Origin: Girardia tigrina
Taxonomy: Eukaryota
Length of the DNA stretch: 55,415 bases
Assembly: GCA_001938485.1 (NCBI GenBank)
Contig: MQRK01224761.1
Coordinates: 21,713-77,127, forward strand
Direction of reading: 5' to 3'
Shown here: positions 3,001 to 6,000 of the stretch, one piece after another
Layout of the letters: every line of letters begins with the position of its first letter
How positions within the stretch are numbered: position 1 is the first letter of the stretch
Program-made: the position numbers

Positions 3001-6000
3001 AAATTTAAAGTTCACCAAAAGGAACCCCAACAAAGGGTAAAAAACCAAACCGTCTAGGAAAACGACAACGATGCAATCAATACTCACCAAAGTATTTGAT
3101 AACGAACATAAAATAATTTCTGATAATTTAATAAAAGTGTAATAAAAATTTACAAAATGTACTTTAATTATCTTTTTTTAGTCACACAATCAGTAAAATT
3201 ATCATTAATTCTTTCATTAATTTATAATTATAAGTCATTTATTCAGTTACGGAATTTTCATTCCAAAACAAATTTTGACAGTTTATAAAATTTATATTTC
3301 CTCTGTTTTGTATTATTATAAAATATAATAATTATATTTTTACACTGTTTTTCATAAATTTTATAAGCAAAATGAATACCGATTTTCTTTTCAGAAATGT
3401 TTTATTTATTTTTAAATATTGTTTTAAAGAATGAAAATCTATTTAAAATTTTAAAAATTTATAAATATGAAAGTAATAATTTAATGATTTGATATACTAG
3501 AACACGTAAATGGCCAGTAATTAAATTATATAAAATTATATTTTTCGGCCAATGAGACCTGTACCAATCAAAATTGAACTTTTAACGAGTATTTATTGAA
3601 GACAAAATTCCCTGAGACATCTCAAACAACATGATTAATATCAATGGGTAAATTTATATTTTCCTATTCTTGGATAATATTCCAATTTTGAATAATACTT
3701 TTCAATTTCAGATTCCTTGCTCTATCAATTGCAATATTATTTATCTTTCAATATACTCCAGAAGTACATGCCGAGAGAGTCAGCGATGGCGTACCAATTT
3801 TCGTAAAACGCTTTCAAAAACGACAAGACTACCCTCATTTTGGCTTCGAAAATGATATGGAAGACGTTAAAAAGCTATTAAGATATAATTATGATCCACT
3901 TCGACAATATGGTAAATAAATCCTAAAGTGTCATAGAGAAAGGAAATATATTTTACAAATAAAAAACTTGTTTTATTAAAGTGATTTTTTTCAAAATTTA
4001 ATTTATATTATTATTACCGTAATTTCCGCACTATAAAGCGCACCGTATTATAAACCGCACATTGCCTGCTTTTCCCAAAAAAAACATTATAAGTTATGAC
4101 ATTATATAAAAAAACATTATAAATATTATAAAACAAATAAAAACATTATAAAAACGTATAAGCCGCAACTCTTAAATTATGACTCATTTCAGGTTTTTAA
4201 GTGCGGCTTATAGTCCGGAATTTACGGTACTATTATAGTAATAATTATTATTATTATTTTAACTAATAATTCATATTTTCGTTGTTATCACATTAGAAAT
4301 CATTTCCCAAGGAAATTATATATTCATATGACAAATACTAAATTAAAATAATTTGCTGACAAATAAAATGATTTATGATAATTATATATTACGGAAATAA
4401 ATAATAGTTCAATAAACTATACCGAAAAAACGATTAATATACTTTTAGAAAATAAGAAAATAATCATATTTTAAAATATTAATATATTATTAAAATTTAT
4501 TTTTACATATATTTCTTATCAAGTTATAATATATATTAAGTTTAATATCAAATTATATTATGTATTAAATAATGATTTTATTCAATTTAAGATAAAATAT
4601 TAATAAAAAATAATTAAATATATTTAGAGTTTTAAATTTGTAAGTGATTTTGTAGTTCTACATTTATTACTTTAATAAATCACAATATATTATATAAACT
4701 CATATCAGTAATAATAAGTTTAAAATTAATATTAGATTAGTATATTTGATTTAAGTAGTAAAAATATATTTTTATCGAACTCTAAAAATTTTTAAATGAA
4801 ACCAGCCTTAGCCATGTCGTTCCTGAAGAAAAGGATGTGAAGTTAATGTTCTTCTGATTTCAGTAGAATATGTGTTCCAGAATATCTTCAAACATTCCTT
4901 AAAATAAAATGAATAAAGATTTTATTCCGCTTTTTAATTTTATTTAATGATATTTATATTTTATTTAGGACGATAATGAGATAATGAGTAAAAATTTTGG
5001 TTTATTGTAATATTTTATTTTCCAAATAACTCGGCAAATGAACAAATTATGAACAAATCTTTTAATGAACTGTCAAATTTCCAAATAAAAATTTTACAAT
5101 GCCAATATTAACTCACTTCCGATATATTTATTATTGAGTCTTGTGAACGCTAATTTGATAGTTTTGAAAAATAATTTTGTTATAGCTTTTTAAGAAATTG
5201 ATTATTATACAGTGCTCCGTAAAAGTATACGATCACCTTAATTTTTGCGAGTTTTCTAGAAAGCAATTGATCTACATAAAAAGTTTCCTTTCTACGTTGT
5301 TACGGTCGACAAGAAAGGATATTATTCATATTTTGACATATACCGTACATTATTCATTTATTTTTTTGATAGTTAAATAAAAATCTAATCTTTTATGTTT
5401 CTATACGAGAATAATATAAAATCTATTGAATACATTATTCTGGATTTATTTGTAAGATTTTTAATGAGATTTAGATTAAAAAAATAAATATATTGCACTA
5501 ATTACTAATTATTATAACTAAAATTATGATATGATAATGAGTATTTTATATTCTAATGACTTCAGATATGAATCACATCAAACTTATTCTATGTAATAAT
5601 TAGTTGTAAAAATTTAAAAATTGCTAATTAATGAATAATTATAATGAACTATACAGTCATACTTATCTTCGTAAAATATTTTATGATTTGACTTAGTACC
5701 AAAAGCGGATCCAGGGGGGGGGTAAAGGTACTAATTACCCCTCCCATGGATCCTCCCTTTCCTCTAACCTACCTGAGTTATACGCAATGAAACAAGAAGT
5801 TCAAGCTCGGTAGTACTAATTTGATAATTTTTCTGTCGGATATTTTAATGATTTAAAAACACTTTTTGCTGTGTGTTTATCTAGTACAGGGTTTTGCATT
5901 TAATTCCGTCTTTTTTGAATCAAAATTCTTGGTTTTTGCAATCAAATTACCCCCCCCCCTGGAATCTTAAATTTAAACATAGAATATCGTAGCGGAATTG

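What the first reader, a model, noticed from the sequence alone, without database searches (positions are those of the whole stretch)
3631..3919. Hidden two-exon neuropeptide prohormone missed by the ORF track
Seen: removing one canonical 64-nt intron yields a 74-aa ORF with a signal peptide, KR/KR/KK sites and terminal -YGK*. Established: this is the prohormone-convertase / carboxypeptidase E / PAM processing grammar. Predicted products are ERVSDGVPIFV, pyroGlu-DYPHFGFENDMEDV and LLRYNYDPLRQY-amide (or YNYDPLRQY-amide). I cannot assign it to a named family, so it may be a lineage-specific signalling peptide. This is the best candidate for new biology in the window.
Basis: partly seen in the sequence, partly recalled or inferred. 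Interest (0 to 1): 0.75.

Follow-up and report, generated by a model that had tools for sequence, protein, structure and literature searches.

The report
Unannotated two-exon peptide prohormone gene
A tiny two-exon gene in AT-rich, transposon-filled DNA encodes a short secreted precursor that looks like a neuropeptide prohormone and has one conserved, unnamed relative, so it is a real gene and a plausible lineage-restricted signalling peptide.

Summary

It is not a chance ORF. One unnamed 76-aa ENA protein (P0001) matches exon 2 at 43/67 identities, E 1.9e-23 against 5.8 billion proteins, and ends on the same Gly-Lys-stop.

Conservation fits a prohormone. Identity is 30/33 from the second KR to the end against 13/35 before it. 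The second KR, the KK and the GK are kept.

No named family matches: Pfam, PDB, a profile search of 1.84 billion proteins, and full-text searches. Tested NPY/NPF features are not met.

Still open:
- Splicing, expression and processing are inferred.
- The host organism is unidentified.
- The published planarian prohormone tables, which are supplements, could not be read, so novelty is unproven.
- The joined 74-residue model was not built or searched.

Verdict: a real gene, probably a small amidated-peptide precursor, and a new member of a known kind. Interest is moderate.

The parts
3529..3534 (+). TATAAA motif about 100 nt upstream of the ATG; possible core promoter (inference only)
   Evidence: Motif positions; CCAAT motifs at 3549 and 3564 in the same call. 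No transcript evidence.
3631..3647 (+). Exon 1, coding part: ATG plus four codons plus the first two bases of a split Gly codon
   Evidence: Best of 9 phase-compatible ATG/donor combinations within 1.5 kb. A model this good within 150 nt arose in 37 of 3000 simulated upstream stretches.
3648..3711 (+). Proposed intron, 64 nt, GTAAAT...TTTCAG, 80% A+T
   Evidence: It holds stops in all three frames and the stop that closes the exon-2 frame. Not confirmed by RNA. Whether relatives share it could not be checked.
3712..3919 (+). Exon 2, coding part: last base of the split codon, 68 codons and TAA
   Evidence: Translation. Homologue P0001 at 43/67 identities, E 1.9e-23. tblastn of P0001 on the window hits only 3716-3916.
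3713..3772 (+). Hydrophobic leader (exon-2 residues 1-20): signal-peptide core, with V and A at -3 and -1 of the proposed cut
   Evidence: Mean Kyte-Doolittle 3.01 over residues 1-12; P0001 has the same value over its residues 10-21. Only 5 of 20 residues are identical to P0001, as expected of a signal peptide. No SignalP run.
3773..3817 (+). Spacer (residues 21-35), including the first KR (32-33), which is not conserved
   Evidence: 8 of 15 identical. KR is QR in P0001.
3818..3823 (+). Second KR (residues 36-37), conserved dibasic site
   Evidence: 2 of 2 identical in P0001.
3824..3868 (+). Middle acidic peptide (residues 38-52), starts with Gln
   Evidence: 14 of 15 identical in P0001, the best-kept block. 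Calculated monoisotopic mass 1841.72 Da, or 1824.694 Da with an N-terminal pyroglutamate.
3869..3874 (+). KK (residues 53-54), conserved dibasic site
   Evidence: 2 of 2 identical in P0001.
3875..3910 (+). C-terminal peptide (residues 55-66), ends in Tyr; predicted to be amidated
   Evidence: 10 of 12 identical in P0001. Calculated mass as the amide 1611.852 Da; the 9-residue form after the internal single Arg is 1229.583 Da.
3911..3919 (+). Gly-Lys-stop: amidation donor plus a basic residue to be trimmed. It overlaps a second G|GTAAAT donor-like site and an AATAAA
   Evidence: Gly-Lys-stop is identical in P0001. AATAAA at 3915 and 3958, ATTAAA at 3975.

Best explanation
It is a small protein-coding gene of two coding exons (3631-3647 and 3712-3919, + strand). 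It encodes a precursor of about 74 residues that enters the secretory pathway and is cut into short peptides: a prohormone.

Proposed course, with exon-2 residue numbers:
1. The hydrophobic leader takes the chain into the ER, and signal peptidase cuts after residue 20.
2. A PC2-type convertase cuts after the conserved KR (36-37) and KK (53-54).
3. A carboxypeptidase E-type enzyme trims the basic residues, including the terminal Lys.
4. The exposed Gly 67 is used by the amidating enzymes, leaving a 12-residue peptide ending in Tyr-amide (55-66).
5. The acidic 15-residue peptide (38-52) is released with it, and its N-terminal Gln may cyclise.

Shown: the reading frame, the splice-site motifs, the relative, and which residues are kept. 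Inferred: splicing, secretion, every processing step, and a signalling role through an unknown receptor.
For: - Real gene: P0001 (76 aa) matches at 64% identity over 67 residues without gaps, E 1.9e-23 in 5.8 billion proteins and 7e-35 pairwise, and stops at the same place.
- Prohormone-like conservation: 30/33 identical from the second KR to the end, against 13/35 before it (Fisher p 3.7e-6) and 8/15 in the spacer alone (p 0.006).
- The KR, KK and Gly-Lys-stop are all kept.
- Both proteins have a hydrophobic 12-mer with mean hydropathy 3.01 and Ala at the proposed -1.
- No globular domain: Pfam finds nothing at E<=0.01 for either protein. At E<=10 only one irrelevant weak hit appears, for P0001. 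The Atlas model of P0001 has pLDDT 0.60 and pTM 0.27.
- Language-model neighbours are mostly peptide-hormone precursors: 7 of 10 rows for P0001 and 9 of 10 named rows for exon 2.
Such a model within 150 nt arose in 37 of 3000 simulations.
- Exon 2 is a G+C island, 34% against 20%.
- The enzyme grammar (PC2 at dibasic sites, carboxypeptidase, amidating enzymes) is established knowledge. It is restated for planarians in passages of bioRxiv 10.64898/2026.10.10.758126.
Against: - There is no RNA, expression or peptide evidence of any kind.
- Only two sequences exist, so conservation of individual sites carries little statistical weight.
- The number of dibasic pairs is what shuffling gives: 5494 of 20000 shuffles reach 3 or more.
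- The first KR is not conserved.
- Exon 1 of the model carries no basic residue, whereas P0001 has two Arg before its hydrophobic core. The two N-termini are not alike.
- Atlas scores of 0.86-0.91 lie in the range that 4-10 in 100 shuffled proteins reach. The tool marks the top family as probably wrong, and the recognition value of 2005 is below its 2300 mark.
- A second donor-like site with the same hexamer sits at 3911|3912.
- SignalP and NeuroPred were not available. The full N-terminus was not assessed because the exons were not joined.
Confidence: 0.6

Rival explanations
1. It is a small secreted protein or peptide that is not a neuropeptide, for example a gland, mucus or defence product. 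The leader works as a signal peptide, but the basic pairs are not processing sites, or processing serves another purpose.
For: The dibasic count is not above chance. Lys is common in AT-rich coding DNA (28.6% G+C). One of the ten nearest named Atlas rows is a non-hormone small protein. No expression data exist.
Against: The terminal Gly-Lys-stop and the two basic pairs that bracket the best-kept blocks are conserved. The nearest Atlas rows are mostly hormone precursors. There are no Cys residues, so no disulphide scaffold of the kind usual in defence peptides (read; the generalisation is from memory).
Confidence: 0.2
2. The copy in this window is a dead or incomplete copy. Exon 2 is conserved, but the start is lost or lies elsewhere, and the 3631 ATG with its 64-nt intron is a coincidence.
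For: Exon 1 is only 17 nt and unlike the N-terminus of P0001. A phase-compatible ATG with a donor this good arises in 175 of 1000 simulated 1.5-kb upstream stretches. The gene lies among transposon remnants.
Against: Exon 2 has no stop or frameshift over 68 codons and keeps the stop position. Within 150 nt such an exon-1 model is rare, 37 of 3000. The single possible acceptor has 11 of 15 pyrimidines before its AG.
Confidence: 0.1
3. It is a longer, non-peptide protein. The donor-like G|GTAAAT at 3911|3912 is used and the frame continues in a downstream exon.
For: The hexamer is identical to that of the exon-1 donor.
Against: P0001 ends Gly-Lys-stop at the same position. No protein of 134-2000 aa scored E<=10 among 404 candidates. 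The length-unlimited profile search of 1.84 billion proteins found only the 76-aa P0001.
Confidence: 0.05
4. It is a divergent member of the NPY/NPF superfamily. The C-terminal Tyr-amide peptide would be a shortened NPY-like peptide.
For: The C-terminal residue is an aromatic followed by Gly and a basic residue. A 'Neuropeptide F' cluster is among the Atlas neighbours at 0.88. Planarians have an expanded npy family with Tyr-ending members (PMC2953531, section 8).
Against: There is no Pfam PF00159 match even at E<=10. The C-terminus is Arg-Gln-Tyr, not Arg-x-Arg-aromatic. Conserved basic pairs cut the chain into short pieces. The codons for Arg-Gln-Tyr-Gly-Lys-stop are contiguous, whereas the family's hallmark intron lies in the Arg codon before the aromatic residue (PMC2953531, section 8).
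Confidence: 0.04
5. It is a chance ORF in AT-rich DNA.
For: About 89 ORFs of at least 60 codons are expected by chance in a window of this size and composition.
Against: There is a homologue at E 1.9e-23. 0 of 200 simulations gave the full pattern. Exon 2 is a G+C island.
Confidence: 0.01

Closest known systems
Planarian 'secreted peptide prohormone' (spp) and 'neuropeptide precursor' (npp) genes of Schmidtea mediterranea (Collins et al. 2010, PMC2953531). 52 neuropeptide genes are said to be known in 2026 (bioRxiv 10.64898/2026.10.10.758126, passages).
   Same: Small precursors with a signal peptide, dibasic sites and often a Gly-basic amidation signal. Many have no relatives outside flatworms. 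Several were found only by pattern search or de novo mass spectrometry (section 8).
   Different: No sequence match to any named entry could be shown. Six strings from the exon-2 translation are absent from the main text of PMC2953531, and strings from it and from P0001 are absent from the searched libraries. The protein searches returned no named hit. The tables holding the published sequences are supplements and could not be read, so identity with a published spp/npp gene is not excluded. The organism of the window is not established either.
NPY/NPF superfamily (Pfam PF00159)
   Same: A C-terminal aromatic residue followed by Gly and a basic residue, and a precursor of similar size.
   Different: No profile match, no Arg-x-Arg-aromatic ending, no intron in the Arg codon before the aromatic residue, and short peptides between conserved basic pairs instead of one peptide of about 36-40 residues (that length is recalled).
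Pigment-dispersing hormone, DH31, prolactin-releasing peptide, spexin and other precursors (nearest ESM Atlas clusters)
   Same: General build: leader, short conserved peptide blocks, basic sites, small size.
   Different: This is likeness of class only. Scores are 0.86-0.91 with 109-139 shared features, where true family members usually share 170 or more. There is no Pfam match to any of these families.

Membership tests
Peptide prohormones processed by convertase / carboxypeptidase / amidating enzymes (a functional class, not a homology family) | N-terminal signal peptide | tested here: inconclusive
   There is a hydrophobic 12-mer with mean hydropathy 3.01, and small residues at -3 and -1 of a plausible cut, in both proteins. 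No SignalP was available, and the full N-terminus was not assessed because the exons were not joined. Exon 1 has no basic residue.
Peptide prohormones processed by convertase / carboxypeptidase / amidating enzymes (a functional class, not a homology family) | Basic cleavage sites that bracket the conserved peptide blocks and are themselves conserved | tested here: met
   KR 36-37 and KK 53-54 are kept, bracketing blocks that are 14/15 and 10/12 identical. KR 32-33 is not kept. There is only one relative, and the count of pairs is not above chance.
Peptide prohormones processed by convertase / carboxypeptidase / amidating enzymes (a functional class, not a homology family) | Gly followed by basic residue(s) at the end of a peptide (amidation signal) | tested here: met
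   Gly-Lys-stop is present in both proteins. In the window, 1 of 129 ORFs of at least 60 codons ends this way.
Peptide prohormones processed by convertase / carboxypeptidase / amidating enzymes (a functional class, not a homology family) | Small size without a globular domain | tested here: met
   The proteins are about 74 and 76 aa. There are no Pfam families at E<=0.01 and no PDB sequence match below E 0.19. The Atlas model has pLDDT 0.60. My own structure prediction was not accepted.
Peptide prohormones processed by convertase / carboxypeptidase / amidating enzymes (a functional class, not a homology family) | Expression in neurons or endocrine cells, and detection of the mature peptides | not testable with these tools
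   No transcript or mass-spectrometry data were on hand. The calculated [M+H]+ values were not in the main text of PMC4825013, and the organism match is unknown.
NPY/NPF superfamily | Match to the family profile (Pfam PF00159) | tested here: not met
   No match for exon 2 or P0001 at E<=10.
NPY/NPF superfamily | C-terminal Arg-x-Arg-Phe/Tyr-amide | tested here: not met
   The ending is Leu-Arg-Gln-Tyr-Gly-Lys in both proteins.
NPY/NPF superfamily | Intron within the Arg codon that precedes the terminal aromatic residue (PMC2953531, section 8) | tested here: not met
   The codons from Arg to the stop are contiguous at 3902-3919. The feature is as described.
Published planarian prohormone set (spp, npp, npy, eye53, 1020 and others) | Sequence identity or clear homology to a named entry | not testable with these tools
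McVeigh et al. 2009 (PMC2749192) is not held. Main-text and library string searches were negative. No named protein hit was returned.
Pigment-dispersing hormone (Pfam PF06324; top Atlas row) | Match to the family profile | tested here: not met
   No Pfam match at E<=10. The Atlas itself marks the top family as probably wrong.

The most novel reading that the evidence does not exclude
The gene founds a previously undescribed, lineage-restricted neuropeptide family. One precursor would yield two co-conserved products: a 12-residue peptide ending in Arg-Gln-Tyr-amide and an acidic 15-residue partner beginning with Gln. On this reading it is absent from the 52 neuropeptide genes counted for planarians, and was missed by annotation because its first coding exon is only 17 nt.
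Probability: 0.35. Interest if true: 0.5.

Novelty: new member of a known kind. Interest (0 to 1): 0.4.

Why it matters
Small prohormone genes with very short first exons are routinely missed by ORF- and homology-based annotation. Yet they encode the main class of cell-to-cell signals in invertebrate nervous systems.

If this gene is expressed and processed as proposed, it adds an orphan amidated peptide, and a tightly conserved partner peptide, to the signalling repertoire of an AT-rich, transposon-rich animal genome. It also gives exact masses and a splice junction that existing RNA-seq and peptidomic data can confirm or deny.

It would not change any general picture. Lineage-specific neuropeptides are expected in flatworms and their kin (PMC13551398, passages).

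Tried and rejected
**Explanations rejected**
- Chance ORF: rejected by the homologue and the simulations.
- Longer or fused forms: 0 of 404 candidates of 134-2000 aa scored E<=10. The profile search of 1.84 billion representatives gave only P0001.
- More relatives through P0001 as query: only itself.
- A name or accession for P0001: none given. Its origin was not pursued.
- Paralogues in the window: none (tblastn).
- The gene as part of a repeat: its 3027-7479 surroundings are not repeated in the window, apart from short AT-rich matches.

**Searches that found nothing**
- Pfam at E<=0.01 and E<=10.
- PDB sequences: best E 0.19, unrelated.
- Rfam over the whole window: 0 matches.
- Literature string searches: searches gave 0 papers. 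One search gave 1 paper, PMC11719014, an unrelated mammalian Ovgp1 study seen in the listing only. One search was swamped by the German word fragment 'endmed' and was repeated without it.
- Calculated masses looked up in PMC4825013: absent.

**Steps that could not be run**
- McVeigh et al. 2009: not held.
- The genome-contig collection holds only bacteria and archaea, so it was not used.
No genomic locus of a relative could therefore be fetched, and conservation of the intron stays unchecked.
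Full report
**1. What is in the sequence**

The window is 55,415 bases of AT-rich DNA (28.6% G+C) with six runs of N, which were left as they are.
- ATG at 3631, with A at -3.
- Five codons reading M-I-N-I-N, then two bases.
- A donor G|GTAAAT at 3647|3648.
- A 64-nt stretch that is 80% A+T and has stops in all three frames.
- An acceptor TTTCAG|A at 3711|3712.
- A 68-codon open frame from 3713 to 3916, closed by TAA at 3917-3919.

The exon-2 translation is FLALSIAILFIFQYTPEVHAERVSDGVPIFVKRFQKRQDYPHFGFENDMEDVKKLLRYNYDPLRQYGK. Residue numbers below refer to this string.

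Read upstream without splicing, this frame meets a stop inside the proposed intron and has no ATG before residue 49. That is why an ATG-to-stop ORF list shows only a 20-aa tail.

The joined 74-residue chain was not built or searched, and exon 1 is too short to search alone. The first six residues of the model, and a signal-peptide call on the complete N-terminus, therefore remain unchecked.

**2. Is it more than chance?**

ORF length alone is not. About 89 stop-to-stop ORFs of at least 60 codons are expected in simulated sequence of this size and composition, and the window has 129.

The combination is.
- Of the 129, only 1 ends in Gly-Lys/Arg. That same one has at least two basic pairs and an uncharged hydrophobic 12-mer near its start.
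- 0 of 200 simulations gave such an ORF. The criteria were set after seeing the candidate, so this flatters it.
- Exon 2 is 34% G+C against 20% in the flanks.

The number of basic pairs is not unusual: 5494 of 20000 shuffles of residues 21-68 give three or more.

**3. Independent evidence: a relative**

A search of about 5.8 billion proteins with exon 2 returned one hit, P0001. It is 76 aa, from ENA, unnamed, and seen on one contig of 708 nt. The match is E 1.9e-23, with 43 of 67 residues identical and no gaps. P0001 begins with Met, has a hydrophobic core after nine residues, and ends on the same Gly-Lys followed by a stop.

Further searches added nothing.
- A profile of the two sequences read against 1.84 billion cluster representatives found only P0001.
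- P0001 as query found only itself.
- No protein of 134-2000 aa scored E<=10 among 404 candidates.
- The cluster look-up gave neither a name nor an accession.
- tblastn found no second copy in the window.

So the gene is real and conserved, and the family as visible here has two members. Whether P0001 is an orthologue from another species or a paralogue from the same one cannot be told.

**4. Pattern of conservation**

| Segment (residues) | Identical to P0001 |
|---|---|
| Leader 1-20 | 5/20 |
| Spacer 21-31 | 6/11 |
| First KR 32-33 | 1/2 (QR in P0001) |
| 34-35 | 1/2 |
| Second KR 36-37 | 2/2 |
| Middle acidic peptide 38-52 | 14/15 |
| KK 53-54 | 2/2 |
| C-terminal peptide 55-66 | 10/12 |
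| Gly-Lys 67-68 | 2/2 |

From the second KR to the end, 30/33 residues are identical. Before it the figure is 13/35 (Fisher p 3.7e-6), and in the spacer with its first KR (residues 21-35) it is 8/15 (p 0.006).

This is the pattern expected of a prohormone: peptide blocks and their flanking sites are held, while the leader and spacer drift. It strengthens the other two.

**5. The splice model**

Between the in-frame stop and the start of the conserved part there is exactly one AG, at 3710-3711, preceded by 11 pyrimidines in 15 bases. The 5' edge of exon 2 is therefore fixed if the acceptor is canonical.

Within 1.5 kb upstream, 9 combinations of ATG, open frame and GT donor fit the phase.
- The other 8 score 2/5 or less, with introns of 466-1397 nt.

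A model that good arises by chance in 37 of 3000 simulated 150-nt upstream stretches, 165 of 3000 at 500 nt, and 175 of 1000 at 1.5 kb. The model is thus the best available and modestly improbable by chance.

It is not proven. No tool here predicts introns, no RNA data are on hand, and no genomic locus of a relative could be fetched.

Exon 1 of the model has no basic residue and does not resemble the first nine residues of P0001.

A TATAAA at 3529, and AATAAA at 3915 and 3958, are compatible with a compact transcription unit. This is inference.

**6. How it most likely works**

I take it to be a prepropeptide. Steps b to e are inferred from established knowledge of the convertase, carboxypeptidase E and amidating-enzyme pathway, which passages of bioRxiv 10.64898/2026.10.10.758126 restate for planarians. 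None is shown here.

- a) Leader: the hydrophobic core has mean hydropathy 3.01 in both proteins, and Val/Ile and Ala sit at -3 and -1 of a cut after residue 20.
- b) Endoproteolysis after KR 36-37 and KK 53-54.
- c) Trimming of the basic residues, including the terminal Lys.
- d) Amidation using Gly 67, leaving a Tyr-amide peptide (55-66; 1611.852 Da). A shorter form (58-66; 1229.583 Da) results if the single Arg 57 is cut.
- e) Release of the acidic peptide 38-52 (1841.72 Da, or 1824.694 Da if its Gln cyclises) (masses).

The middle peptide is the most conserved block, so it may be a signal in its own right and not a mere spacer.

Confidences:
- Real coding gene: about 0.9.
- Secreted, processed peptide precursor: about 0.6.

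**7. Rivals**

- A secreted but non-neuropeptide product (0.2) cannot be excluded without expression data.
- A dead copy whose start is lost (0.1) is possible, because exon 1 rests on motifs alone.
- Use of the second G|GTAAAT at 3911|3912 to make a longer protein (0.05) is argued against by the shared stop in P0001 and the lack of longer relatives. Whether P0001's 708-nt contig is a transcript is unknown.
- Membership of NPY/NPF (0.04) fails every feature tested: no PF00159 match at E<=10, an ending of Arg-Gln-Tyr instead of Arg-x-Arg-aromatic, and no intron in the Arg codon before the aromatic residue (against the description in PMC2953531, section 8).
- A chance ORF is refuted.

**8. Comparison with what is known**

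No Pfam family fits and no solved structure comes below E 0.19.

The ESM Atlas places both proteins nearest to clusters of peptide-hormone precursors.
- 7 of 10 rows for P0001.
- 9 of 10 named rows for exon 2.
- These include pigment-dispersing hormone, DH31, neuropeptide F, prolactin-releasing peptide, spexin, neuropeptide S, galanin, gastrin/CCK and GnRH.

This is likeness of class only. Scores of 0.86-0.91 are reached by 4-10 in 100 shuffled proteins, the shared-feature counts are low, and the tool says the top family is probably wrong.

The closest known things in kind are the planarian spp and npp prohormone genes.
- Collins et al. 2010 (PMC2953531) report 51 such genes. I read the outline, all of section 8, and term look-ups in the main text.
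- A 2026 preprint speaks of 52 known genes (passages only).

Strings from the exon-2 translation and from P0001 gave no relevant result. They do not occur in the main text of PMC2953531. They also do not occur anywhere in the 8.1 million PMC papers and 0.36 million preprints searched. The single hit is an unrelated mammalian paper, seen in the listing only.

I therefore cannot say that this gene is absent from the published sets.

Composition and transposon load fit it, but nothing here names the organism.

**9. Surroundings**

Of 75 open stretches of at least 70 codons without N, 74 were scanned against Pfam. The candidate's own stretch had been scanned. Ten of the 74 matched a family at E<=0.001, all of mobile-element type:
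- reverse transcriptase and RNase H
- DDE transposases
- a hAT-type DUF659
- a DUF7047 next to RNase H

No other host gene was recognised, and Rfam found nothing in the window. The gene is not itself repeated in the window. Nothing in the window was taken for human.

**10. Verdict**

One of its three predicted products is doubtful, and its function, host and novelty are unproven.

It is best filed as a new member of a known kind, the orphan small peptide precursors. Interest is moderate, at 0.4.

Noticed in passing
window 4015-4229: A short element of about 215 nt lies 96 nt downstream of the stop codon. It has terminal inverted repeats: the 14-base ends match on opposite strands at 4015-4028 and 4216-4229, and 0 of 100 shuffles gave two matches. 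The interior is AT-rich with a repeated 'aaaacattataa' motif. It looks like a MITE-type insertion and could sit in or just beyond the 3' UTR.
   Followed up: partly
window 2748-3026 and 7480-7741: Two direct copies of a repeat of about 280 nt (80% identical overall, 92% over the first 95 nt) bracket the gene 4.7 kb apart. Whether they are LTR-like ends of one element or two copies of a dispersed repeat was not resolved.
   Followed up: partly
window 455-2190; also 16904-17254 and 23926-26234: These are retroelement-like (virus-like) pol remnants on the + strand, described only. Between 455 and 2190, reverse-transcriptase and RNase H matches fall in 3 of 4 separate open stretches, and two of them match the same part of the RT profile, so the pol frame is in pieces. 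Stops and frameshifts were not counted singly. The third region carries a sub-threshold RT match (E 0.0011), DUF7047 and RNase H-type matches.
   Followed up: no
window 8600-8992, 20540-20788, 40229-40769, 41174-41545: These are DNA-transposon remnants: DDE_3 (Tc1/mariner-type) pieces at two places, a DDE_1 piece, and a DUF659 (hAT-type) piece.
   Followed up: no
window 17611-50905 (six runs): There are six runs of N, 50 to 863 bases long and 2836 bases in all. They produce spurious long ORFs in all frames in the ORF list. They were left as they are.
   Followed up: no
window 3911-3917: The Gly-Lys-stop codons contain a second G|GTAAAT identical to the exon-1 donor hexamer, and overlap an AATAAA at 3915-3920. 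One short stretch thus reads as amidation signal, stop, donor-like site and poly(A)-like signal at once.
   Followed up: partly
whole window: No Rfam family reached its gathering score on either strand. No host gene other than the candidate was recognised among open stretches of at least 70 codons.
   Followed up: yes
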